Below, one piece after another: positions 1-14,143 of a stretch of DNA of 24,221 nt (the stretch's first letter is position 1; each line of letters begins with the position of its first letter). This DNA comes from Acidimicrobiaceae bacterium (GTDB lineage Bacteria > Actinomycetota > Acidimicrobiia > Acidimicrobiales > UBA8190), in NCBI GenBank assembly GCA_003151955.1, contig PLZB01000060.1, positions 1 to 24,221 on the forward strand, given 5' to 3'. The notes below the pieces were generated by a model. It had not been told where the DNA came from and ran no database searches. It worked only from the letters and a program-made list of their open reading frames with translations. The translations under genes were made by a program, and so were the position numbers.

Positions 1-188
1 CCCCACCTCCGGGTGGGCCACCACCACCTCCTCCGGGTGGGCCACCACCCCCACCTCCGGGTGGGCCACCGCCACCAGGAGGTCCTCCGGGCGGTCCCGG
101 CGGTCCTGGTCCTGGCGGACCTGGGCCGGGCGGACCTGGGCCGGGCGGACCTGGGCCGGGCGGACCTGGGCCGGGGGGACCCGGAGGC
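1..188. repeat. Tandem DNA repeats. About 3 imperfect copies of a ~24-bp unit (ccacctccgggtgggccaccacc) cover 1-75. Four perfect copies of the 15-bp unit ggcggacctgggccg cover 114-173, with degenerate copies on either side.
   Basis: Read directly from the sequence. The + frame starting at position 3 translates the repeats as PPPGGPPPPPPGG...GGPGPGGPGPGGPGP. Confidence 0.85.
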
Positions 189-194
189 TACTGA
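3..194 (+). CDS. 3' end of a gene encoding a Pro/Gly-rich low-complexity C-terminal tail. The 5' end lies outside the window.
   Basis: The + frame starting at position 3 is open from the window edge to TGA at 192-194 and encodes only P/G repeats ending in GGY*. The reverse strand would also read as G/P-rich, so the strand is not certain. A large stem-loop and then the TetR promoter follow. Confidence 0.3.
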   Translation, partial: PPPGGPPPPPPGGPPPPPPGGPPPPGGPPGGPGGPGPGGPGPGGPGPGGPGPGGPGPGGPGGY

Positions 195-198
195 GTCA

Positions 199-270
199 GA
201 GGATCACCCTGCCCTCGTGGGCTGTTCGGCTCGAGTGCGAACCGGGCAGCCGCGAGGGTCGGGGTGATCT
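199..270 (+). terminator. Long imperfect stem-loop immediately after the TGA at 192-194; a possible intrinsic terminator or structured RNA.
   Basis: Three nested pairings: gatcaccc (202-209) with gggtgatc (261-268); ccctcg with cgaggg; ggctg with cagcc. No U-tract follows, which is common in high-GC actinobacteria. Confidence 0.3.
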
Positions 271-355
271 GACGGCGGAGTTTCGATACGGTGGATCCAG
301 GATCAGAGGTGGAGCCGATCCGACTCGGGTCTTTGGGCTCACGAGCTGGAAACAC

Positions 356-394
356 TTAGTTGCATAGTTAATGCAACTACCGTAGGGTTTGGGG
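356..394 (+). promoter_or_regulatory. TetR operator overlapping a promoter. The operator is the inverted repeat TAGTTGCAT-N5-ATGCAACTA (356-378). The promoter is a -35 TTGCAT (359-364), a 17-nt spacer and a -10 TAGGGT (382-387). The predicted transcription start is close to ATG 395, so the transcript would be leaderless.
   Basis: Perfect 9-bp arms with a 5-bp spacer, lying in the only AT-rich patch of the region, 17 bp upstream of the TetR start codon. The -10 fits the TANNNT consensus and no Shine-Dalgarno sequence is present. Confidence 0.5.
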
Positions 395-1042
395 ATGAGC
401 TTGGGGGCGGACGAGGTGACACGCCCGGCGCCTGCTGTCGACGGGAGAACAGCACGCGGTGAACGGACCCGGAGGGCGCTGGCCCAGGCCCTCATCGACC
501 TCCTCGAGGAAGGCGACCCACAGCCAACGGCCCGCCGTGTCGCCGAGCGGGCCGGGGTGTCGCTCCGTTCGGTCTTCCACCACTTCGAGAACCTCGAGAC
601 GCTCCTGGGGGCTGCGGTTGCCATCCAGAGCGAACGACATTGGGGGCTCATCCGGTCGATTCCGGTCAACCTCCCGGTCGAGGTGCGGATCAGCCGGTTG
701 GTGGAGGAGAGGGCCGGGCTCTTCGAGGCGATCTCGCCGGTTCGCCGATACGGGGTCCGTGCCGGGGCAGGGTCGCCGGCGATCGGGAAGATGATCGCCT
801 CGACGAGGCAGGTTCTCCGGCTGAGGGCACAGGCCATCTTCGCCCCTGAGTTCGAGACCCTCCCCGCCGATGAGGTCCTGACCCACCAGGACGCGCTCGA
901 CGTGGCCACATCCTGGGAGACGTGGGAACAACTCCGGCAGTACTCGGGGTGTTCCCCCGAGTCGGCCAGGCGGGCGATGGAACTCCTGCTGACCTCGATC
1001 CTGGCCCCGCTGGCCGCTCCACCGACCGGAGGCAGAGCATGA
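395..1042 (+). CDS. TetR/AcrR-family transcriptional regulator.
   Basis: The N-terminal helix-turn-helix ([15 protein letters not shown]...[25 protein letters not shown]) is the TetR signature. The reading frame starts at TTG 389 and ATG 395 is the likely start. The stop TGA (1040-1042) overlaps the next gene's ATG (ATGA). Confidence 0.85.
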
Positions 1043-1962
1043 AGATCCTGCGGACACCCGAAGAGCGCTTCGAGGGGCTCGCCGGATATCCCTTCGAGCC
1101 CCATTACGTCGAGGTCCCGACCGGGGACGGATCGGGTGACCTCCGGGTCCACTACCTCGACGAGGGGCCCCGGGGCGCCAAGGAGACGGTGCTGCTGCTC
1201 CACGGGGAGCCTTCCTGGAGCTTCCTCTACCGGAAGATGGTCCCCCTCTTCGCCGCCTCGGGGTTCCGGGTCATCGCCCCCGACCTGGTGGGCTTCGGCC
1301 GGTCCGACAAGCCCGGTGAGCGCACGGACTACACCTACGCCCGCCATGTCGAATGGATGCGGAGCGCCCTCTTCGACGGCCTCGACCTGAAGCACCTGAC
1401 GCTCGTCTGCCAGGACTGGGGCGGGCTGGTCGGCCTCCGGCTGGTGGCCGAGCATCCGGACCGGTTCCGGCGGGTGGTGGCGGCCAACACGGGTCTCCCC
1501 ACCGGTGACGCCCACGTGGGGAAGGCCTTCCAGGCCTGGCTCCAGTTCTCCCAGGAGGTCCCCGAGCTCCCGGTCGGTCGGATCGTGGCCGGGGGATGCG
1601 CCCAGCCCGTGGCCGACGACGTGGTGGCAGGCTACGACGCCCCGTTCCCGGACGAGTCCTACAAGGAGGGGGCACGGCAGTTCCCGGTCCTCGTCCCGAT
1701 CACGCCGGAAGACCCCTCCTCGGAGGCCAACCGGAAGGCATGGGAGGTCCTCCGTGAGTTCAACCGGCCCTTCCTCTGCGCCTACAGCGACCAGGACCCC
1801 ATCACCCGGGGGGCCGACGAGCTCTTCCTGACCGACGTCCCGGGGACGACGGGCCAGGGTCACCGGACCATCGAGGGCGGAGGGCACTTCCTCCAGGAGG
1901 ACCAGCCCCACGCCCTGGCCCTGGCCGTGACGGACTTCATCCACCTGAATCCCCTCGGCTGA
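1039..1962 (+). CDS. Haloalkane dehalogenase of the HLD-I subfamily (DhlA-like alpha/beta hydrolase).
   Basis: Aligns along its length with Xanthobacter DhlA. Matching blocks include [17 protein letters not shown] and [16 protein letters not shown]. It carries the nucleophile motif QDWGG (Asp-Trp), the cap-domain Trp (FQAWLQF), a conserved Asp (SDQDPI) and the C-terminal His (GGHFLQED). A GGAGG RBS lies 6 nt upstream of ATG 1039. Confidence 0.85.
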
Positions 1963-1974
1963 GAGCCGGACCCC

Positions 1975-3501
1975 ATGGGCCGGAAGATCCTCTTCGTCAC
2001 CACGGACCAGCAGCGCTTCGACGCTCTGGGGTGCAACGGGGGGACCGTGGCCCGGACCCCGGTCATCGACAGTCTGGCCGCCGGGGGTCTCAACTATCGG
2101 CGGGCGCACAACCAGAACACCGTCTGCATGCCGGCCCGGTCGACCATGATCACCGGCCAGTACCCCCGGACCCACGGGGTGGTCTCCAACGGGATACCGC
2201 TGCCGGTCGAGGCCCCCTCGATCGCCGGCTACCTCCACGAGGAGGCCGGCTACCGGACGGCCCTCCTGGGGAAGGCCCACTTCCAGCCGGGGATGGACCC
2301 GAAGCACCAGTGGACCGAGAACCGGCTGGCCCATCTCGGGTCGACGGGCCCCTACCGGGGGTTCGAGCACGCCGAGCTGGCCATGCACGGCTACCTCTAC
2401 CAGTGGCACTACGACAAGTGGCTGGAGACCAACTGCCCGGAGTGGATCGGCGGCTACTACCCCCTCCTCTCGGCGGCAGGTCTCAACGAAGAGGGCGGGG
2501 GGGACACCGGGGCGCCCGAGGTGAAGCAGAACCCCATCCCCACTGCCATGTACCACACGGCCTGGGTCGCCGACCGGACGATCGCATGGCTCGACAGCCT
2601 CAGCGCCGACGAGGACTGGTTCTGCTGGATGAGCTTCCCCGACCCCCACCACCCCTGGGACCCCCCCTACGAAGAGGTCCGGAACCGGGTCGACTGGCGT
2701 GATCTCGACCTCCCCCCCGGCCATCCGGGGAGCCGGGAGAAGATCGTCGAGGTCCTGGCCCGGAAGCCCCACCACTGGCTCGACTGGTACGAGGGGCGGT
2801 TCCAGAACCGGGAGGGTGGTCCGGCGAAGTTCGTCCCGGCCGCGATGACCGATGACCAGCTCCGGGAGGTCACGGCCATGATCCACGTCGAGAACGAGCT
2901 CATCGACGAGGCCCTGGGCCGGGTCATGACCCGGATCGGGGAACGGGGCTGGGGCCAGGACACCGACGTCCTCTTCAGCACCGACCACGGGGAGCTCCAG
3001 GGGGACTTCGGGCTCCTCTTCAAGGGGCCCTACCACGTCGACGCCCTGATGCGGGTCCCCCTGGTCTGGCGGCCGGCCCCCTCGGCGGGAACGACCCCGG
3101 CCGAGATCGAGGAGCCCGTCGGCCACCTCGACCTGGCCCCCACCTTCTGCGCCATCGCCGGGGTCCCGGTCCCGGACTGGGTCCAGGGGGAGGTCCTCCC
3201 CACCGCCCCCGGCTCCGGGCGGGAACGGGTCATCACCGAGTGGGAGAGCCAGTTCCCCGACATCGGGATGAAGCTCGAGACGATCTACCGGGACGGCTGG
3301 GTCTGTACCAGCTACGGGGCCGGCCCCCTCTACGAGGGCACCGAGGGGGAGCTCTACGACCTGGCCGAGGACCCCCTCCAGTGGGTGAACCTCTGGGACG
3401 ACCCGGCCCACCGGGCCCGCCGGGAGGAGCTCCTCACCGACCTGGCCGACCACCTCCCTGCCCACCGGGAGCCGGCCCTGGCGGTGGAAGCGCCGGTCTG
3501 A
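1975..3501 (+). CDS. Cys-type sulfatase (arylsulfatase family). It has no signal peptide, so it is predicted to be cytoplasmic.
   Basis: It begins with FVTTDQQRFDALGCNG. The formylglycine motif CMPARSTMITG (C-x-P-x-R) is present, as are the sulfatase metal-binding blocks (SFPDPHHPWDPP, STDHGE). Confidence 0.85.
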   Translation: MGRKILFVTTDQQRFDALGCNGGTVARTPVIDSLAAGGLNYRRAHNQNTVCMPARSTMITGQYPRTHGVVSNGIPLPVEAPSIAGYLHEEAGYRTALLGKAHFQPGMDPKHQWTENRLAHLGSTGPYRGFEHAELAMHGYLYQWHYDKWLETNCPEWIGGYYPLLSAAGLNEEGGGDTGAPEVKQNPIPTAMYHTAWVADRTIAWLDSLSADEDWFCWMSFPDPHHPWDPPYEEVRNRVDWRDLDLPPGHPGSREKIVEVLARKPHHWLDWYEGRFQNREGGPAKFVPAAMTDDQLREVTAMIHVENELIDEALGRVMTRIGERGWGQDTDVLFSTDHGELQGDFGLLFKGPYHVDALMRVPLVWRPAPSAGTTPAEIEEPVGHLDLAPTFCAIAGVPVPDWVQGEVLPTAPGSGRERVITEWESQFPDIGMKLETIYRDGWVCTSYGAGPLYEGTEGELYDLAEDPLQWVNLWDDPAHRARREELLTDLADHLPAHREPALAVEAPV

Positions 3502-3968
3502 GCCGAGGACCTGGAACGTTTCCGCGGAAAGACTTCGGCGTTGGCGCCGGACGTTGCAGTGACCAACGACCGCTACGGTGGTGGAGGTGGCGGACAGAAC
3601 GGGCGGACCGGGTGAGCCGATTGGTGACGACGAAGTCCTCACTCAATACGGCTACGACGACGGCTCAGCTCCGGCGTTCAGGTCGGCGCCCCGAGAGAGT
3701 GACACCGACGGGGTGTCGATGATCCGAGGCGCTCTGGTCGCGACCGAAGCCGCCCGGATGGTTCGAAACGGCAGGACCTCCCCCGATCCAACATTCGACC
3801 GCGTCAGGTTGACCAGGGCCGGAACCCTCCGGAAAGCCGGATTCGAGGTGACCCACACGCCGTCCAAGCGCCTTCCCGGCCATGTGAGCGTCAGCCGGTC
3901 CCAAACCTGGGACGGAGACGTGACCGAGGCCTTTCACCTATGCTTTGGCCGTGTCGAAGGAGGTCAAG

Positions 3969-4430
3969 ATGTCTGATCAGATCCTCCTGGTCCGAGGGAT
4001 GCTCCCGTGGACGCCTTCTCCGGGTGCGGAGCTCCTGAAGGTGTACCACCGGTATGACCAGCCGCTCCAGGGCATCCTCGACCAGGATGGGGCTCTCTAC
4101 CTGTTCGAATGCGTCGCGGGCGAGGTGGGGCCCTGGAGCGTCTGGATCTACAGCTATGTCCAGGCATCCGAGGTTGCCGCCCTCGATGAAGCTGAGGGGG
4201 AAGAATTCGAGGCGCTCGTGGCACATAGCCGGGCCGAGCGGCCCTGCAAGCTCGCACTCTCCATGGAAAATGCGGGAATTGTCGTCGTGGCGAACGTCTT
4301 GGACATGCGGGGCGGGTTGAAAGCTGGCTTCGAGGAACTGGTTGCGCTTTTCAACGAGCATCTCGAAGATCTCCGCCGCGCCAGCGTCGAGATCGAACAC
4401 GCCGACTGGACAAAGCTGGCTGCCAGCTGA
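3969..4430 (+). CDS. Hypothetical acidic protein of 153 aa. It is an orphan gene with no recognisable family, sitting in a lower-GC patch.
   Basis: A strong RBS GAAGGAGG (3956-3963) lies 5 nt before ATG 3969. GC at third codon positions is high in this frame. The product reads as globular (MSDQILLVRGMLPWTPSPGAELLKVYHRYDQPL...). Confidence 0.55.
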   Translation: MSDQILLVRGMLPWTPSPGAELLKVYHRYDQPLQGILDQDGALYLFECVAGEVGPWSVWIYSYVQASEVAALDEAEGEEFEALVAHSRAERPCKLALSMENAGIVVVANVLDMRGGLKAGFEELVALFNEHLEDLRRASVEIEHADWTKLAAS

Positions 4431-4439
4431 TCCCGCGGA

Positions 4440-4776
4440 GTCGCTCGGTCAGGGCGTCCCGACCCTCGGCCGCAGAGGTGCAGAGGCCAACGGGGCCGCT
4501 CGCACGGGGACGCATCCGCGAGCTTCGAAGACCGGAGGTCTGGCGCACCCTCCATGCTGTCCCAGATCTCGCGGGGGGCCAGACCGGTCAGTCCAAACGC
4601 CTGGACCCGCTCCACTACGGTCGACGTCATGGAGAACGTTCCGCTCACATCCTCAGGAGTCCCGAAGGCGTGCACCTCGGGGTCGAGGGCCTCGGGACGA
4701 GAGGCGATGTGGGCTGCGTTTTGTCGATCCAGGGCTGGTAGCTCTTGAGGTCGGGGTAGAACTCGTAGATCCTCAT
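4440..4776 (-). pseudogene. Possible frameshifted gene remnant downstream of the dioxygenase gene.
   Basis: An ATG at 4776-4774 (3 nt after the dioxygenase stop) opens MRIYEFYPDLKSYQPWIDKTQPTSPLVPRPS..., which terminates after about 43 codons. A second minus-strand frame continues in protein-like fashion (HAFGTPEDVSGTFSMTSTVVERVQAFGLTGLAPREIWDSMEGAPDL). No intact long ORF remains. Confidence 0.2.
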
Positions 4777-4779
4777 CGG

Positions 4780-6117
4780 CTACGGGGCGTCGGCCACCCA
4801 GTTCCCGTGGAACCCCTCGGGGACCCGCTGGGGGAGCTCGACGGTGGCGACGGGCTCGGCGGTGACATCCGCGGCGTCGAGGACGAAGAGGTCGGAGGTG
4901 TCCCGGGCGGCGTCGTAGGCGAGGAGGAGGACCCAGCCGTCATCCTCGGCGGAAATGGGACTCCGGGGGACGAAGACGGCCTCACCGATGCCGACTCCGG
5001 CCGGGAAGGTCCGGGCCTGGCTGGTCCCGGCCACCAGGTCGTGCTTCAGGAGGGTGTCGGCCCCGTAGAGGGAGCTGTCCCCGGCGGCGAGGCCGACGGA
5101 CCAGCCGTAGCGGTGGCGGCGACCGACGACCCGCTCGTCGACCCGGGGGAACTCCGAGGGCCGGTCGTCGAGCTGCTCGGTGTGGACCTTCCCGGCGGCG
5201 GGGTCGATGGTCCAGCGCCAGAGGGCGGGGTTGCTCCCGTAGGGGCCGGCCGCCCCCCGGTCGAAGATCCGGTCGTGGCGGACGACGTCGACGACGACGG
5301 TCTCCCCCTCGTCGTAGGCGTTCAGGGGATGGAAGACGTAGGAGGGCTCCATCTCGACCCAGACCACCTCCGAGCCGGGAGCCCCGAAGGGGAGGACCCC
5401 GATCCGGTTCCCGTAGTCCGGGTTCCAGGAGTAGGGGAAGGGGGCGCTCGACAGGTCGAAGGTGACGGGCTGGTCGTAGAAGACGGCCCTCGTCCCCGTG
5501 ATCGACATGTCGTGGACCATGGGGGACCCGGGGACGGGGATGGCCTCGTTGCTGACCACCAGCCCGTCGGTCCCGACGACGAGGTACTGGAGGTGGGGGA
5601 GGCCCCAGTAGTAGGCGCAGGCGTGGAGCTCCCCCGTCACCGGGTCCAGCTTGGGGTGGGCCGTGAAGCCGTTCGGGAGGGTTCCCTGGAAGTCGCTTCG
5701 GCGGACCGTCTCGAGATCCCAGCTGAGCTCGATGGGCCGGGCTCCCGCCTCGACCAGGGCCAGGGTCCGGCCGCCGTGCCCGATCACATTGGTGTTGGCG
5801 GAGAAGTCCATCCCCCCGTGGACCTCCCCCGGGGGGTCGGGCTCGCCCCTGGCCTCGGCGATGGCCTGGTTCCGGACCCACCGGTTCCGGTACCACTCGG
5901 CCTTCCCGGCGCGGAGACGGATCCCGTGGACCATGCCGTCGCCGAGGAACCAGTGGTAGGCGGCCGGGTCGGGCGGGACGAGGGGGTTGGGGCCGATCCG
6001 GAGGTACCGACCCGAGAGCTCCTCGGGGAGCCGGCCCCGGACGGGGAGGTTCGTCGCCGTGACCTCCTCGGCCACGGGGGCGAAGTTGCCGGCCAGGTAG
6101 ACGCTCGTCTCGGTCAT
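4780..6117 (-). CDS. Carotenoid / stilbene cleavage oxygenase (CCD / RPE65 / lignostilbene-dioxygenase family).
   Basis: Family-typical blocks include the N-terminal LSGRYLRIGPNP, FDGDGMVHG-like GDGMVHGIR, HPKLDPVTGEL, FHPLNAY, and a C-terminal EGFHGNWV. I call the start at ATG 6117 (MTETSVYLAGNFAPV) rather than the longer ORF starting at 6177, which would run through the PadR start and the palindrome. Confidence 0.8.
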   Translation of the reverse strand: MTETSVYLAGNFAPVAEEVTATNLPVRGRLPEELSGRYLRIGPNPLVPPDPAAYHWFLGDGMVHGIRLRAGKAEWYRNRWVRNQAIAEARGEPDPPGEVHGGMDFSANTNVIGHGGRTLALVEAGARPIELSWDLETVRRSDFQGTLPNGFTAHPKLDPVTGELHACAYYWGLPHLQYLVVGTDGLVVSNEAIPVPGSPMVHDMSITGTRAVFYDQPVTFDLSSAPFPYSWNPDYGNRIGVLPFGAPGSEVVWVEMEPSYVFHPLNAYDEGETVVVDVVRHDRIFDRGAAGPYGSNPALWRWTIDPAAGKVHTEQLDDRPSEFPRVDERVVGRRHRYGWSVGLAAGDSSLYGADTLLKHDLVAGTSQARTFPAGVGIGEAVFVPRSPISAEDDGWVLLLAYDAARDTSDLFVLDAADVTAEPVATVELPQRVPEGFHGNWVADAP

Positions 6118-6130
6118 CCCCCAGTGATAC

Positions 6131-6149
6131 ACTGTCCATAGTGGACAGT
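6131..6149. promoter_or_regulatory. Inverted repeat ACTGTCCA-TAG-TGGACAGT in the 41-bp gap between the divergent oxygenase and PadR genes; a candidate PadR operator.
   Basis: Perfect 8-bp arms with a 3-bp spacer, centred in the divergent region (6118-6158). Both genes must be transcribed with very short or absent leaders. Confidence 0.45.
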
Positions 6150-6158
6150 CAAGGGAGG

Positions 6159-6683
6159 TTGAACGCGACGGCGGCATCGCTCCTCGGGGTCCTCCGGCGC
6201 CACGGGGAGCTCACCGGGGCCGGGCTGGTCCGGGCCACGCTCCTCGAGATCGGGGAGTTCTTCCCCCTGGCCCGGAGCCAGGCCTACCGGGAGCTGACCG
6301 ACCTGGCCGACCACGACCTGGTGGAGGCCGGCCCCCCCGGCCCCCGGTCCTCCCGCCCCCACCGGGTCACCCGGGCCGGCGAGGTGGCGTTCCTGGAGTG
6401 GCTGGCCCAGACCCCGGGGGAGGACTCCGTCCGGTTCCCCCTCCTCCTCACCATCTCCTTCGGGTCCGACCTCCCCCCGGCCCGGCTGGCCGAGCTCGTC
6501 GACGCCCATGAGGCCCGCCACCGGGAGAAGCTGGCCCGGTACCGGGCCCTCCTTCCCCAGGTGGAGGAGCACGCCGACGCCTTCGTGGCCGCCACCCTCC
6601 ATCTCGGGATCCGCTACCAGGAGGCCACCCTGGCCTGGTTCTCCGAGCTCCCCCCCGAGGTCCGGGGACGGATCAGCCGTTGA
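6159..6683 (+). CDS. PadR-family transcriptional regulator.
   Basis: A winged-helix N-terminus (LLGVLRRHGELTGAGLVRATLLEIGEFFPLARSQAYRELTDLADHDLVE) is followed by a C-terminal helical dimerisation region. The start is ambiguous between GTG 6141 and TTG 6159. I chose 6159 so that the palindrome stays outside the coding sequence. Confidence 0.65.
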   Translation: MNATAASLLGVLRRHGELTGAGLVRATLLEIGEFFPLARSQAYRELTDLADHDLVEAGPPGPRSSRPHRVTRAGEVAFLEWLAQTPGEDSVRFPLLLTISFGSDLPPARLAELVDAHEARHREKLARYRALLPQVEEHADAFVAATLHLGIRYQEATLAWFSELPPEVRGRISR

Positions 6684-7248
6684 ACTGGTGGAGGACGGGG
6701 CCGTCGTGGCCCCAGCCGATCCTCGTCACCGAGGCGGTCGAGAGGTGGAGCCGCCAGGCCAGCTCGTCGCCGAGGCCGAGGGCCCAGGCCACGGCGGCCT
6801 TGATGGGCGAGACGTGGCTCACGACCACCACGTCGGTGCCGGCCCGGGCCCCGGCGCCGTCCTCGGCGAAGAGCTCCCGGCAGGCGCCCCGGACCCGCTC
6901 CCCCATCTCGAGGAGGGTCTCCCCCCCGGGGGGCCGGAAGCCGGGATCGGCCCGCCAGGCCTTCCAGAGATCGGCGGGGACGTCGGCGAGCCTCGTCCCG
7001 TCGAGCTCCCCGTAGTCGACCTCGAGCCAACGGTCGTCGAACTCCAGGGGAAGGTCACCGGCCAGGGCCAGGGCCGTCGCCCGGGCCCGACCCAGGGGGC
7101 TCGAGACGACCCGGCCCAGGCTCGGGAACCGGCCGGCCAGGGCGGCGGCCTGGGCCGATCCCGAATCCGTCAGGGGGGACTCCATCCGGCCCAGTAGGAG
7201 CCCGGCCCGGTTCCCAGCCGACTCCCCATGGCGGACGAGGATGAGCAC
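6673..7248 (-). CDS. Histidine phosphatase family protein (phosphoglycerate-mutase-like; CobC / alpha-ribazole-phosphatase-like).
   Basis: The N-terminal LVRHGES motif (catalytic RHG) and the internal His (VSHVSPI) are present. GTG start at 7248, 4 nt after the stop of the preceding gene. The 3' end overlaps PadR by 11 bp (convergent). Confidence 0.8.
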   Translation of the reverse strand: MLILVRHGESAGNRAGLLLGRMESPLTDSGSAQAAALAGRFPSLGRVVSSPLGRARATALALAGDLPLEFDDRWLEVDYGELDGTRLADVPADLWKAWRADPGFRPPGGETLLEMGERVRGACRELFAEDGAGARAGTDVVVVSHVSPIKAAVAWALGLGDELAWRLHLSTASVTRIGWGHDGPVLHQFNG

Positions 7249-11410: not shown

Positions 11411-12784
11411 CTACTCGGCCGGGCCCCCGTCGAGGAGCTGCTCCCCGATGATGAGCTCCCCGGCGATGGCCGGGGTGTAGGGCCAGGCGTCGGTGGTGGA
11501 ACCGGCGGTGGCCCGGATGGAATCCTCACCGGCGGACGCCGCCGGGGCCGACCCGGTGGTGGCGAGGGCCCAGACCCCGACGGGCCAGTAGTTGGCGGCC
11601 AGGGAGGAGACCACCCCGTTGGCCTCCTGGCGGGCCGACGCCGTGGGCTCGGCCCAGGCCCCCTGGCCGGCGGTGAACCGGGCCAGGAGGTCGGCCGCCC
11701 GGGGCCCGCTGACGAGGCCATAGGCCACGGCCCAGACCTGCTCGAGGCCGTCGGGGTAGAGGAGGGACCAGTCGGTGGTCTGGTGGATGCCGTCCCCGTG
11801 GACGGCCCAGTCGTAGGCCCCGGTGGCGGGGTCCCAGAGGGCGGCCACCCCGGCGGCCAGCCGGCCGGCGTCCGACCCGGCCCGGGTGGCCAGGGCGGGA
11901 TCCCCCAGGGCCCCGGCCAGGGTCACGGCCGCCTCGAGGCCCCCGTAGGTCTCGGCCTGGTCCATCAGGTACTTGACGTGGTAGCTCGGCTTGGCCCAGG
12001 TCAGCCCGTCGCTGTCCTGGGTGGACTCGATCACCGAGACGGCGGCGGCGACGGCCCCGGCCGAGGCGGTCAGCCGGCCCTGGTCACCGCTGGCGAGCCA
12101 GGCGTCCCGGACCGCCAGCAGGAAGGTCCCGGCCGTGGCGTCGGTGGAGTCGACGTCACCGGTGGGGACGGTCCCGCCCCCCGAGACGGTGGCGTTGGTC
12201 ACGACCCCGCCGGGTCCCTGGTTGGCCGCGTACCAGCCGATCTCCCGCCAGGCCTCCCCGGCCAGGGAGGCGTTTCCCGTCATCGAGGCCGCCCGGGCCA
12301 GGCCCATCGCCGCGTAGTTCGACAGGTAGGGCCAGACCTCCCCGCTCCCCGGGTAGGTGGTGATGGCCCCGTCGGCCAGCTGGGCCGACTCGATGAAGGT
12401 CACCTCGGCACCGACCTGGGCGCTCGCCGCCACCTGGGCCCGGTTCCCGGCCACCCCGACCGTCGTCGTCGTGGTGGAGGACGTCGAGGACGACGTGGTG
12501 GTCGAGGTCCCCGGGGGGGAGACGGAGGTCGTGGTGGTGGAGGAGCTCGACGTCGTGGAGGTCGAGCCGCCGGAGACCGCCGTGGGCGTCGGGCCGGCCG
12601 CTGACGGGGACGTCGTGGTCGAGCCGACGAGGCCGACGGCGGCAGCCTGGGTGGTGGTCGGCCCGGTGGAGACGGCCCGTGCCGCCCGGGGGGCGGCGGA
12701 GCTGCCGGCAGTGCCCCCGAGGAGTCCCGACGCGGCGACGATGATCCCGATCACCGCAGCCTGCCGTCCCCGCCTCTCCTGCAC
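11411..12784 (-). CDS. Secreted protein: a Sec signal peptide, a ~90-aa Ser/Thr-rich linker, and a ~330-aa C-terminal domain of unknown function.
   Basis: The signal peptide reads MQERRGRQAAVIGIIVAASGLLGGTAGSSAA. The linker reads TSTTSSSSTTTTSVSPPGTSTTTSSSTSSTTTTT. The C-terminal domain is rich in W, Y, A and G, with no assignable family. GTG start at 12784; an alternative GTG lies 10 codons downstream. Confidence 0.6.
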   Translation of the reverse strand: MQERRGRQAAVIGIIVAASGLLGGTAGSSAAPRAARAVSTGPTTTQAAAVGLVGSTTTSPSAAGPTPTAVSGGSTSTTSSSSTTTTSVSPPGTSTTTSSSTSSTTTTTVGVAGNRAQVAASAQVGAEVTFIESAQLADGAITTYPGSGEVWPYLSNYAAMGLARAASMTGNASLAGEAWREIGWYAANQGPGGVVTNATVSGGGTVPTGDVDSTDATAGTFLLAVRDAWLASGDQGRLTASAGAVAAAVSVIESTQDSDGLTWAKPSYHVKYLMDQAETYGGLEAAVTLAGALGDPALATRAGSDAGRLAAGVAALWDPATGAYDWAVHGDGIHQTTDWSLLYPDGLEQVWAVAYGLVSGPRAADLLARFTAGQGAWAEPTASARQEANGVVSSLAANYWPVGVWALATTGSAPAASAGEDSIRATAGSTTDAWPYTPAIAGELIIGEQLLDGGPAE

Positions 12785-12985: not shown

Positions 12986-14143
12986 TCAGGTGGTGATGCC
13001 CCCGCCCCCACCCTCGGAGCCGTCCCGGCCCCGAAGACCGGCCGGACCGTTGGGGCCCCCGCCGCCGGGTCCACCGAAGGCCCCGGTCGAGCCGGCGGGG
13101 ATGGCGATGATCGAGGTGGCCGTGACGGTCCCGTCTGCCGCCTTGCTGCCCATGACGATGATCCGGTCACCAACGGCAAGGCTGCTGAGGCTTCCCGTTC
13201 CCGAGGGGCTCCGGTAGGTGGTCGACGAGGTGGTGTCCACCGTCGTCGTCCCCCCTCCCGGTGTCGTCACGGTGATCGTCCCCCCGCTGACCGAAGCCAC
13301 CGTTCCCGTCGTCCCCGGCATCCCGGTCATGCCTCCCGGCATGCCCCCGAACCCCCGGTGTCCACCATGGCCGCCGCCGGCGGTCGGACCGCTGGGGCCG
13401 ACGGTGACCGAGGTGGCGTCGAGCTCGGTGTGGTCGGCGTCCACCGTGCCGGTGGCGACGACCCGGGCCCCGACGGTCACTACCGAGGCCGTGGCGGCCG
13501 CTCCCCCCTGGGAGTAGGTGGTCGACGGCGAGGTCTTCACCGTCCGGTAGAGACCCTGGACGTCGGAGAGGGTGATGGCTCCGCCCGTCACCGAGACCAC
13601 CGTCCCCTCGACCCGGGGGGAGACGATGTCGAGCTCGGCCGCCACCGGGGACACCGCCGCCGCCGTGGTCGTCGTCGAGGAGGACGGGCTGTGGGCGGGT
13701 CGGACGACCCGGATGTCGACGAGCTCGCCGACGGCCAGCGCGGACCGGTCCACGGTGGTCCCGTCCCGCTTGTAGATCGTGGCGCCGTCGGTGGACACCG
13801 TCCGGCTCGAGCCCCCCGGTCCGGAGACCGTCACCGTGGTGGCCCCGACCGCGGTCACGGTGGCCTCCCCAGCCGGGCCCCGCCCCCCGCCCGGCAACCC
13901 GGGAAGCCCGTGGGGGAGACCGCCGGGTGCGGTCGACGTGGTCGTCGACGAAGTGCCCCCGGCGGCGGCGGCGACGCCGTAGCCACCGAGTCCCAGCATC
14001 GCCGTCAGGCCCCCGGCGGCGACGGCCCAGCGGATCCCCCGGCCCCGGGTCGGCCCTTCCGGCGCCGGGGCGGGGATCGGATCGATCCAGCTGGCCACGA
14101 CAGGATCCTGGGCAGCTCCGGGCTCGGACTCAGCTGGGCTCAT
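12986..14143 (-). CDS. Membrane-anchored protein (cytoplasmic N-terminus, one TM) with three DUF5666-like beta-repeat domains separated by Gly/Ser/Thr-rich linkers.
   Basis: The TM segment is IRWAVAAGGLTAMLGLGGYGVAAAA. Three ~60-aa repeats follow the pattern GTV..V.G.TITV....G...TV.....T.Y........L..L.VGD.V. The gene lies immediately downstream of the two-component system on the same strand. Confidence 0.65.
   Translation of the reverse strand: MSPAESEPGAAQDPVVASWIDPIPAPAPEGPTRGRGIRWAVAAGGLTAMLGLGGYGVAAAAGGTSSTTTSTAPGGLPHGLPGLPGGGRGPAGEATVTAVGATTVTVSGPGGSSRTVSTDGATIYKRDGTTVDRSALAVGELVDIRVVRPAHSPSSSTTTTAAAVSPVAAELDIVSPRVEGTVVSVTGGAITLSDVQGLYRTVKTSPSTTYSQGGAAATASVVTVGARVVATGTVDADHTELDATSVTVGPSGPTAGGGHGGHRGFGGMPGGMTGMPGTTGTVASVSGGTITVTTPGGGTTTVDTTSSTTYRSPSGTGSLSSLAVGDRIIVMGSKAADGTVTATSIIAIPAGSTGAFGGPGGGGPNGPAGLRGRDGSEGGGGGITT

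What the first reader, a model, noticed from the sequence alone, without database searches (positions are those of the whole stretch)
356..3501. TetR-controlled, apparently leaderless operon pairing a DhlA-like haloalkane dehalogenase with a cytoplasmic Cys-type sulfatase
A 9-bp-arm palindrome, TAGTTGCAT-N5-ATGCAACTA, overlaps a -35 TTGCAT / -10 TAGGGT promoter whose predicted transcription start falls at the TetR ATG. TetR, the dehalogenase and the sulfatase are then coupled (ATGA overlap, followed by a 12-bp gap). HLD-I enzymes with all DhlA catalytic residues (Asp nucleophile, two Trp, His, Asp) are uncommon. Co-regulation with an organosulfate esterase suggests a module for detoxifying or scavenging halo- and sulfo-organics, with the ligand sensed by the TetR. 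The sulfatase needs formylglycine formation, but no FGE gene is in the window.
Basis: partly seen in the sequence, partly recalled or inferred. Interest (0 to 1): 0.55.

Follow-up and report, generated by a model that had tools for sequence, protein, structure and literature searches.

The report
TetR-controlled dehalogenase–sulfatase operon, conserved operator
A soil or wood actinobacterium (Acidimicrobiales) carries a three-gene unit (repressor, haloalkane dehalogenase, cytoplasmic sulfatase) whose promoter, repressor-binding site and gene pairing recur in related uncultured bacteria; each part is a familiar type, but the repeated dehalogenase–sulfatase pairing is a modest new clue to what these enzymes do in nature.

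Summary
It overlaps a TTGCAT-17 bp-TAGGGT promoter-like pair that ends 6 nt before the ATG at 395. TetR (395-1042), an HLD-I haloalkane dehalogenase (1039-1962, ATGA overlap) and a signal-less Cys-type S1 sulfatase (1975-3501, 12-bp gap) follow.

The dehalogenase is a clear HLD-I member. It scores 467 bits on NF002043 against a cutoff of 265, has the full Asp-Trp-Trp-Asp-His pentad, and is 61-62% identical to DpcA and DmrA but only 39% to DhlA.

Comparative data support the regulatory reading:
- 16 of 17 TetR orthologues (40% identity or more) carry TTGCA-N7-TG(C/T)AA just upstream.
- Twelve relatives also keep the -35 / -10 / start-codon spacing expected of a leaderless transcript.

TetR-HLD-sulfatase recurs in at least 8 other contigs. 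The same TetR type also sits with the HLD alone or the sulfatase alone.

This HLD-I type is not uncommon (more than 580 relatives among species-representative genomes). The absence of an FGE gene in 24 kb says nothing.

The substrate and inducer remain unknown. This is a new variant of a known kind, of moderate interest.

The parts
207..263 (+). Imperfect GC-rich inverted repeat downstream of the upstream Pro/Gly-rich ORF. It may be the terminator that separates the operon from the upstream gene.
   Evidence: pair I2: 14-nt arms, 79% complementary, 29 nt apart. There is no T-run, and the terminator scan did not call it. Weak evidence.
357..379 (.). Operator: perfect palindrome TAGTTGCAT-N5-ATGCAACTA, with conserved core TTGCA-N7-TGCAA at 360-376.
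   Evidence: one copy, 0.03 expected. The same motif lies upstream of 16 of 17 TetR orthologues of 40% identity or more. Positions not used in the search are also conserved: A 17/18 and T 16/18.
360..365 (+). -35-like hexamer TTGCAT, which is also the left half-site of the operator.
   Evidence: TTGCA(C/T) lies 17-18 bp upstream of a TANNNT-type hexamer in 9 relatives, and TTGTAT in 2 more.
383..388 (+). -10-like hexamer TAGGGT (TANNNT), 6 nt upstream of the ATG.
   Evidence: The composite layout, with an in-frame start 5-8 nt after the hexamer, occurs in 12 of 27 TetR relatives. Background is 0.018 per kb.
395..1042 (+). TetR-family regulator, 215 aa, probably translated from a leaderless mRNA.
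   Evidence: Pfam TetR_N at residues 36-73. PDB TetR-family hits. The gene caller uses the same start. There is no room for a Shine-Dalgarno sequence between the -10 hexamer and the ATG.
1028..1032 (+). GGAGG Shine-Dalgarno sequence for the dehalogenase, inside the end of the TetR gene, 6 nt before ATG 1039.
   Evidence: Read directly from the sequence.
1039..1962 (+). HLD-I haloalkane dehalogenase, 307 aa. Pentad: D126 (nucleophile), W127, W167, D253, H283.
   Evidence: NF002043 467 bits against a cutoff of 265. PDB: 6f9o E=6e-125, 4mj3, 5esr, 2xt0, 7avr, DhlA 1edb E=2.5e-53, against HLD-II at about 1e-28. Alignment A1, with the DhlA sequence verified.
1975..3501 (+). Cys-type S1 sulfatase (alkaline-phosphatase superfamily), 508 aa, no signal peptide. 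Residues: D11, Q12, C51 (formylglycine site), R55, K100, H102, H225/H226, D337, H338, K350.
   Evidence: Pfam Sulfatase 110 bits, with the match starting at residue 5. Best structures are SpAS1 4upi, 7oz8, SpAS2 4upl and the PMHs.

Best explanation
This is a self-repressed, three-gene operon of an Acidimicrobiales bacterium.

Regulation. A TetR-family dimer binds the palindrome TTGCA-N7-TGCAA. The palindrome covers the -35 hexamer and the spacer of the only promoter, so bound repressor blocks RNA polymerase. When a small ligand, still unidentified, binds the repressor, transcription starts at or next to the A of the TetR ATG, giving a leaderless mRNA.

Translation. Ribosomes read TetR. They then reinitiate on the dehalogenase through the ATGA overlap, helped by a GGAGG sequence, and continue to the sulfatase 12 bp further on.

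Enzymes. Both are cytoplasmic hydrolases that remove an inorganic anion and leave an alcohol.
- The HLD-I enzyme displaces halide from an alkyl carbon by SN2 attack of Asp126.
- The S1 sulfatase cleaves sulfate esters with a formylglycine made from Cys51 by an enzyme encoded elsewhere.

Likely role: inducible clean-up or use of halogenated and sulfated organic compounds that have entered the cell.

Shown here: the sequence anatomy, the family memberships, the catalytic residues, and the conservation of the operator, the promoter layout and the gene linkage. Inferred: repression, the leaderless start, co-transcription, the ligand and the substrates.
For: Anatomy.

Operator: 16 of 17 TetR orthologues of 40% identity or more have TTGCA-N7-TG(C/T)AA (at least 7 of 8 core bases) within about 100 nt of the start of the aligned coding region, or 234 nt in L087. 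The genomic background is 0.38 such sites per kb. Unselected, symmetry-related positions are also conserved.

Promoter and leaderless layout: TTG[CT]AN-16..18-T[AT]NNNT-5..8-start codon, in frame, occurs in 12 of 27 relatives. Background is 0.018 per kb. The operator always overlaps the -35 hexamer or the spacer.

Tight coupling: the TetR stop and the HLD start overlap or abut in L001, L020, L030 and L050.

Linkage:
- TetR-HLD-sulfatase, in the same order, occurs in L001, L030, L082-L085 and L087, and partly in L107. HLD-sulfatase occurs in L089-L092.
- The HLD is also linked to a sulfatase in other arrangements: L019 (divergent), L079, and the 35%-identity paralogues in L008, L012 and L034.
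- The same TetR type sits directly upstream of the HLD alone (L020, L021, L050) or of the sulfatase alone (L095, L099, L103, L108, L111, L116).

Enzymes: for the HLD; for the sulfatase.
Against: - There are no experimental data of any kind.
- The hexamers are poor matches to the sigma-70 consensus (3+3 of 12), and the consensus scan found no promoter.
- The TetR_N Pfam score is only just above threshold (24.6 against 24).
- In-frame alternative starts exist at TTG 389 and GTG 416.
- No terminator is visible after 3501, so the 3' end of the transcript is undefined.
- Most close sulfatase relatives (58-68% identity) have no HLD nearby, and most HLD-I relatives (about 65 of 80) have no sulfatase nearby. 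The pairing is therefore clade-restricted and could be historical rather than functional.
- The Shine-Dalgarno sequence before the sulfatase is weak.
Confidence: 0.7

Rival explanations
1. The TetR controls a general stress or xenobiotic response, and the two enzymes have unrelated substrates. On this view the dehalogenase was simply inserted between an older TetR-sulfatase pair (or the sulfatase was added to a TetR-HLD pair), and the order persisted by descent within one Acidimicrobiia lineage.
For: - TetR-sulfatase(-GST-like) operons without an HLD, and TetR-HLD pairs without a sulfatase, both exist with the same operator.
- Most relatives of either enzyme lack the partner.
- The co-directional triads cluster in one part of the sulfatase tree.
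Against: The HLD is linked to sulfatases in several different geometries and with distant sulfatase paralogues of 35% identity (L008, L012, L019, L034, L079, L155). Simple inheritance of one arrangement does not explain that.
Confidence: 0.2
2. The two enzymes act in sequence on one class of bifunctional natural products that carry both alkyl halide and sulfate ester groups, for example chlorosulfolipid-type polychlorinated alkyl sulfates or halogenated, sulfated phenolic or alkyl metabolites. The TetR would sense that compound.
For: - Recurrent HLD-sulfatase linkage in different arrangements.
- Both enzymes are cytoplasmic and are translated from one message.
- In sister clades the sulfatase sits beside a Zn-dependent alcohol dehydrogenase or a GST-like protein, which fits an alcohol product or an electrophile theme.
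Against: - No transporter, and no further catabolic gene for such a compound, lies in the operon.
- Nothing identifies the substrate.
- The papers found that mention both enzyme types do not report them as a gene pair, and two further searches found no paper linking them.
- The existence of such compounds rests on general knowledge, not on any test made here.
Confidence: 0.1
3. The 'sulfatase' is really a phosphonate-monoester or phosphodiester hydrolase of the arylsulfatase/PMH branch. The module would then concern organophosphorus rather than organosulfur compounds.
For: - The nearest solved structures include phosphonate monoester hydrolases (4upk, 2w8s, 2vqr) as well as arylsulfatases.
- NCBIfam PehA (phosphoric/sulfuric ester hydrolase) scores 134 bits, well below its cutoff of 900.
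- The protein passes no equivalog model.
Against: The best hits are the arylsulfatases SpAS1 and SpAS2 and a chain named choline-sulfatase. The residues aligned to SpAS1's active site are all conserved. Enzymes of this branch are promiscuous, so sequence alone cannot decide.
Confidence: 0.1

Closest known systems
HLD-I haloalkane dehalogenases DpcA (Psychrobacter cryohalolentis, PDB 6f9o) and DmrA (Mycobacterium rhodesiae JS60, PDB 4mj3)
   Same: 61-62% identity over the full length, the same Asp-Trp-Trp-Asp-His pentad and the same cap length.
   Different: The genomic setting differs. The entry names come from the PDB table, and the organism names are from my own knowledge. No TetR or sulfatase context for those genes was examined here.
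   Same: Same subfamily and same five catalytic positions: D124, W125, W175, D260, H289 in DhlA, and D126, W127, W167, D253, H283 here.
   Different: Only 39% identity. DhlA has a 10-residue insertion in the cap that this protein lacks.
TetR-type repressor next to a haloalkane dehalogenase: dhaR-dhaA of Rhodococcus (from my own knowledge), and ZGAL_235/ZGAL_234 of Zobellia galactanivorans (PMC5613140)
   Same: A TetR-family regulator is adjacent to a haloalkane dehalogenase. In Zobellia the pair is induced on kappa-carrageenan, a sulfated polysaccharide, according to the paper.
   Different: Those dehalogenases are of the DhaA/DbjA type (HLD-II), not HLD-I. No sulfatase is in those units. The operator and the leaderless layout described here were not reported there.
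Cytoplasmic arylsulfatase/PMH branch of the alkaline-phosphatase superfamily: SpAS1 4upi, SpAS2 4upl, choline sulfatase, RlPMH 2vqr
   Same: [quoted passage not shown] There is no signal peptide (PMC5870055).
   Different: The match to these structures is distant (best E=6e-33). The protein falls below every NCBIfam equivalog cutoff. The substrate is unknown.

Membership tests
Haloalkane dehalogenase subfamily HLD-I | Scores above the curated cutoff of the HLD-I-type model and better than the other HLD models | tested here: met
   NF002043 scores 467.1 bits against a cutoff of 265. NF002938 scores 132.7 and NF002873 scores 94.6, both below their cutoffs. That NF002043 corresponds to the DhmA/DhlA type is my own knowledge, but the PDB ranking is consistent with it.
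Haloalkane dehalogenase subfamily HLD-I | Catalytic pentad Asp (nucleophile), His (base) and Asp (acid), plus two halide-stabilising Trp residues | tested here: met
   D126, H283, D253, W127 and W167 align with DhlA D124, H289, D260, W125 and W175. These columns are invariant in alignment A1. The HGEP motif (E57) is also shared with DhlA, DpcA and DmrA.
Haloalkane dehalogenase subfamily HLD-I | Closest relatives are characterised HLD-I enzymes rather than HLD-II or HLD-III enzymes or epoxide hydrolases | tested here: met
   PDB ranking: 6f9o, 4mj3, 5esr, 2xt0, 7avr and DhlA score E=1e-125 to 1e-53. DhaA, DmmA and HaloTag score about 1e-28. No formal tree with HLD-II/III references was built.
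Haloalkane dehalogenase subfamily HLD-I | Hydrolytic dehalogenation activity | not testable with these tools
   Needs an enzyme assay.
Type I (formylglycine-dependent, Cys-type) sulfatase | Sulfatase domain of the alkaline-phosphatase superfamily | tested here: met
   PF00884 scores 110 bits against a cutoff of 25, over residues 5-397. The SGSH_C C-terminal domain also matches.
Type I (formylglycine-dependent, Cys-type) sulfatase | C-X-P-X-R maturation motif with Cys at the nucleophile position | tested here: met
   C51-M-P-A-R55, followed by STMITG. It aligns with the formylglycine position of SpAS1.
Type I (formylglycine-dependent, Cys-type) sulfatase | Conserved metal ligands and catalytic Lys/His residues | tested here: met
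   D11, Q12, K100, H102, H225, D337, H338 and K350 align with identical residues of SpAS1.
Type I (formylglycine-dependent, Cys-type) sulfatase | A maturation enzyme (FGE or anSME) is present in the genome | not testable with these tools
   None is found in the 24-kb window. The rest of the genome is not available. Linkage is not required (PMC5870055).
Type I (formylglycine-dependent, Cys-type) sulfatase | Cytoplasmic location (no signal peptide) | tested here: met
   The Pfam match begins at residue 5 (model position 3), and the metal-binding Asp is residue 11. That leaves no room for a Sec or Tat leader. No dedicated signal-peptide predictor was run.
TetR-family repressor with a palindromic operator | N-terminal TetR-type helix-turn-helix domain | tested here: met
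   PF00440 scores 24.6 bits against a cutoff of 24, at residues 36-73. PDB TetR-family hits go down to E=4.5e-5. This is a marginal pass.
TetR-family repressor with a palindromic operator | An inverted-repeat operator overlaps the promoter of the regulated genes | tested here: met
   The palindrome at 357-379 overlaps the -35 hexamer and the spacer. It is conserved upstream of orthologues. Binding itself is not testable here.
Leaderless transcript (actinobacterial type) | A TANNNT -10 hexamer lies 5-8 nt upstream of the start codon, with no Shine-Dalgarno sequence | tested here: met
   TAGGGT is followed by 6 nt and then the ATG. The same layout occurs in 11 other TetR relatives. The actual 5' end cannot be tested with these tools.

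The most novel reading that the evidence does not exclude
The recurrent coupling of an HLD-I dehalogenase with a cytoplasmic S1 sulfatase under one TetR reflects a shared natural substrate class in Acidimicrobiia. There are two forms of this idea:
- The substrates are halogenated organosulfates, such as chlorosulfolipid-like or halogenated, sulfated phenolic or alkyl metabolites of algae or fungi.
- Or the enzymes attack organosulfates in complementary ways, the HLD at carbon and the sulfatase at sulfur.

Either form would be a genomic lead to the native function of HLD-I enzymes, most of which have been characterised only on synthetic haloalkanes (my own knowledge of the field).
Probability: 0.15. 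Interest if true: 0.7.

Novelty: new variant of a known kind. Interest (0 to 1): 0.4.

Why it matters
As far as I know, haloalkane dehalogenases are widely used in biotechnology, yet their natural substrates in non-degrader bacteria are mostly unknown. Here an HLD-I gene sits in a conserved operon with a cytoplasmic sulfatase, under a repressor with a defined, conserved operator. That makes the question testable, because the TetR can serve as a ligand sensor to screen for the natural inducer.

The comparative data also give a ready-made operator consensus (T-N2-TTGCA-N7-TGCAA) and a set of leaderless promoters for Acidimicrobiia, a class with, as far as I know, few cultured members and little promoter information.

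The individual genes are ordinary members of large families, so the value lies in the pairing and its regulation.

Tried and rejected
- The E. coli-type promoter and intrinsic-terminator scan of 1-5000 found nothing. The promoter assignment therefore rests on the actinobacterial TANNNT form and on conservation, not on consensus strength.
- Folding 3490-3640 showed no structure better than shuffled sequence (z=0.24), so no terminator could be assigned.
- Rfam found no RNA family in the window.
- A second exact operator-core match in L030 (1334-1350) is GC-rich and 3 kb upstream of the TetR operator. I judged it a chance match, although the ORF listing did not establish what it lies in. The other scattered exact matches in low-GC genomes were not followed.
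- The DNA alignment used wrong coordinates for three loci and is uninformative. The operator table replaces it.
- NCBIfam gave no specific name for the GST-like, DUF1330 or 153-aa neighbours.
- Literature searches for HLD plus sulfatase, Acidimicrobiia plus both enzymes, and chlorosulfolipid degradation found no description of this pairing. A 'TetR' word-start search was swamped by 'tetramer'.
- The DpcA structure paper (PMC6497103) is not held.
- The 1148-aa antisense ORF at 196-3642 was rejected as a high-GC artefact. The third-position GC pattern and all domain hits favour the + strand.
Full report
**1. What is in the sequence**

The window is 72% G+C. It is identical to part of a 24.5-kb metagenome scaffold, ENA ERZ28653421, 'WOOD18-1' scaffold_14507. 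The closest genomic relatives of its genes are Acidimicrobiales metagenome-assembled genomes.

The palindrome is real. TAGTTGCAT and ATGCAACTA occupy 357-365 and 371-379 and are perfectly complementary, with 5 nt between them. The core TTGC-N9-GCAA occurs once in the 24,221 bases, against 0.03 expected from dinucleotide shuffles.

The promoter-like elements are laid out as follows:
- TTGCAT at 360-365
- a 17-bp spacer
- TAGGGT at 383-388
- 6 nt, then ATG at 395

The remaining gene junctions are also as described:
- The TetR ORF ends at 1042.
- The next ATG is at 1039, giving the ATGA overlap. It is preceded by GGAGG at 1028-1032.
- That ORF ends at 1962.
- The third ORF starts at 1975, a 12-bp gap, and ends at 3501.

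An independent gene call on the source scaffold gives exactly these three genes, including the 215-aa TetR start.

The two hexamers match the E. coli sigma-70 consensus poorly (3 of 6 each), and a consensus scan called nothing in 1-5000. On its own, the promoter reading is weak.

**2. The proteins**

*TetR.* TetR_N matches residues 36-73 at 24.6 bits against a cutoff of 24. There are weak but consistent matches to solved TetR-family regulators.

*Dehalogenase.*
- NCBIfam NF002043 'haloalkane dehalogenase' scores 467 bits against a cutoff of 265. The two other HLD models stay far below their cutoffs.
- The best solved structures are 6f9o, 4mj3, 5esr, 2xt0, 7avr and then DhlA, at E=1e-125 to 1e-53. 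DhaA, DmmA and HaloTag-type enzymes score only about 1e-28.
- I aligned it with DhlA (my remembered sequence was verified as identical to 1edb), DpcA and DmrA. The pentad columns are invariant: D126, W127, W167, D253 and H283 correspond to DhlA D124, W125, W175, D260 and H289.
- Identity is 39% to DhlA and 61-62% to DpcA and DmrA. DhlA's 10-residue cap insertion is absent.
- It is therefore a bona fide HLD-I enzyme of the DpcA/DmrA type.

*Sulfatase.*
- Pfam Sulfatase scores 110 bits, starting at residue 5. That leaves no room for a signal peptide.
- The motif C51-M-P-A-R55 is present.
- D11, Q12, K100, H102, H225, D337, H338 and K350 align with identical residues of the arylsulfatase SpAS1, 4upi.
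- It passes no NCBIfam equivalog cutoff, so its substrate cannot be named.
- Its nearest structural relatives are the cytoplasmic arylsulfatase / choline-sulfatase / phosphonate-monoester-hydrolase branch (PMC5870055).

**3. Is the HLD type rare, and does the missing FGE matter?**

Of these, 582 were confirmed as relatives. The 80 kept are 59-73% identical and come from Acidimicrobiia, Chloroflexota, Binatia, Gamma- and Deltaproteobacteria and others. This HLD-I type is widespread, not uncommon.

No FGE-like domain was found in any sizeable ORF of the window. That carries little weight: the motif is the FGE target wherever the FGE gene lies, and E. coli matures such enzymes with an unidentified endogenous activity (PMC5870055).

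**4. Comparative evidence for the operator and a leaderless promoter**

I collected TetR relatives next to HLD genes (loci) and next to sulfatase genes (loci). I then examined about 260 nt upstream of each.

*Operator.*
- Sixteen of the 17 relatives that are at least 40% identical to the window's TetR and have upstream DNA carry TTGC-N9-GCAA with at most one core mismatch, directly upstream of the gene.
- L001 and L083 have two adjacent copies. L116 has a more degenerate copy.
- The genomic background for such matches in the 1.37 Mb of fetched loci is 0.38 per kb.
- Positions I did not select on are also conserved and symmetric: A after TTGC in 17 of 18 distinct sites, T before GCAA in 16 of 18, and T three bases upstream in 15 of 18.
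- The resulting consensus is T-N2-TTGCA-N7-TGCAA.

*Promoter and start codon.*
- The composite layout is TTG(C/T)AN, 16-18 nt, T(A/T)NNNT, 5-8 nt, then a start codon in frame with the TetR. It is found in 12 of 27 relatives.
- Examples: TTGCAT-17-TAGGAT-6-ATG in L085, TTGCAC-17-TATGGT-7-ATG in L021, and TTGTAT-17-TATCTT-7-ATG in L095.
- The same composite occurs only 0.018 times per kb elsewhere.
- The operator always overlaps the -35 hexamer or the spacer.

This is what one expects for a self-repressed, leaderless TetR promoter. It turns a weak single-sequence argument into a reasonably strong comparative one. Binding and the 5' end remain untested.

**5. Is the gene pairing conserved?**

*From the HLD side.*
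- TetR-HLD-sulfatase in the same order occurs in L001 (48/73/76% identity) and L030 (46/64/66%).
- A 62%-identical sulfatase lies divergently next to the HLD in L019.
- L079 has the TetR and a 60%-identical sulfatase 1-3 kb away.
- L008, L012 and L034 have a 35%-identical sulfatase paralogue beside the HLD.
- L020, L021 and L050 have the TetR directly upstream of the HLD with no sulfatase.
- All of these are Acidimicrobiia or unclassified Actinomycetota.

*From the sulfatase side.*
- Ten of the 12 relatives of at least 72% identity that have upstream DNA have the HLD immediately upstream (L082-L085, L087, L089-L092, L107). The exceptions are L119 and L130.
- Five of these show the complete triad, and L107 shows a partial TetR.
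- Sulfatases of 64-68% identity often have the same TetR type directly upstream but no HLD (L095, L099, L103, L108, L111, L116). A GST-like gene follows in L095, L099, L103 and L111.
- Another clade has a divergent Zn-dependent dehydrogenase or a DUF1330 gene.

A rough neighbour-joining tree of 85 sulfatases places the triads in one region. The TetR-sulfatase clade sits next to it, and the other HLD-linked cases lie elsewhere.

Three things follow:
- The TetR and its operator travel with either enzyme.
- The triad is a stable arrangement in one lineage.
- HLD-sulfatase proximity has arisen or persisted in several geometries.

That argues for a functional connection, although descent within one lineage explains part of it.

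**6. How it most likely works**

See the best explanation for the full statement. In brief:
- The repressor binds the operator over the promoter.
- An unknown ligand releases it.
- A leaderless tricistronic mRNA is made.
- TetR and the HLD are translationally coupled.
- Two cytoplasmic hydrolases each release an anion (halide or sulfate) and an alcohol.

The neighbours of sulfatase orthologues elsewhere (alcohol dehydrogenase, GST-like protein) fit an 'alcohol-forming / electrophile-handling' theme but do not identify a substrate.

**7. Comparison with what is known**

- TetR-type regulators next to haloalkane dehalogenases are known. Examples are dhaR-dhaA in Rhodococcus (my own knowledge) and ZGAL_235/234 in Zobellia, which is induced on a sulfated polysaccharide (PMC5613140). 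Those involve HLD-II enzymes and no sulfatase.
- I found no paper describing an HLD-sulfatase operon.
- The parts are ordinary members of large families. The conserved combination, with its defined operator, is a new variant of the familiar TetR-repressed catabolic or detoxification operon.

**8. Verdict**

- Interest is moderate (0.4).
- The main value is as a testable lead to the natural role of HLD-I enzymes and as a source of Acidimicrobiia promoter and operator information.

Noticed in passing
window 1-192 (+), tandem repeats at 3-77 and 99-181: The upstream ORF runs off the left end of the window. It ends in a Pro/Gly-only tail encoded by tandem DNA repeats of period 24 (3.1 copies) and period 15 (5.5 copies). 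It has no Pfam hit. The public gene call on the source scaffold instead places a gene on the opposite strand here.
   Followed up: partly
window 3501-6683: In relatives L084-L088 a histidine-phosphatase gene lies convergently about 25 bp after the sulfatase. In the window the corresponding gene is at 6673-7248 (-). About 3.1 kb lies in between, holding a 153-aa ORF with no family hit (3969-4430), a carotenoid-cleavage-type dioxygenase (4780-6177, -; NF052295 524 bits, below its cutoff of 675) and a PadR-like regulator (6141-6683). This looks like a lineage-specific insertion.
   Followed up: partly
window 3750-4650: G+C drops to 62-64% against 69-76% on either side. The only ORF called here (3969-4430, 153 aa) matches nothing in Pfam or NCBIfam.
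   Followed up: partly
L095, L099, L101, L103, L111 (downstream of the sulfatase): In these loci a gene for a roughly 345-aa GST-like protein (GST_N_3 / GST_C_2) follows the sulfatase. Four of them (L095, L099, L103, L111) are TetR-sulfatase operons that lack the dehalogenase. The GST-like gene may be a functional stand-in for the HLD. It has no NCBIfam name.
   Followed up: partly
L042, L064, L068, L069 (Ilumatobacteraceae): The same TetR type lies about 3.1 kb upstream of the HLD. Weak sulfatase-family matches (24-27% identity) lie between them in L042, L064 and L069, and about 1.5 kb downstream of the HLD in all four. This suggests a larger, different cluster around the HLD in that family. 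Its operator was not found with the TTGC-N9-GCAA pattern.
   Followed up: no
window 196-3642 (-): An 1148-aa open frame runs antisense across all three genes. It is a high-GC artefact rather than a gene. The third-position GC pattern and the domain hits favour the + strand.
   Followed up: yes
window 11411-12784 (-) and 12986-14143 (-): A 447-457-aa ORF has no family match, and next to it lies a DUF5666 protein. Both are of unknown function and unrelated to the finding.
   Followed up: no
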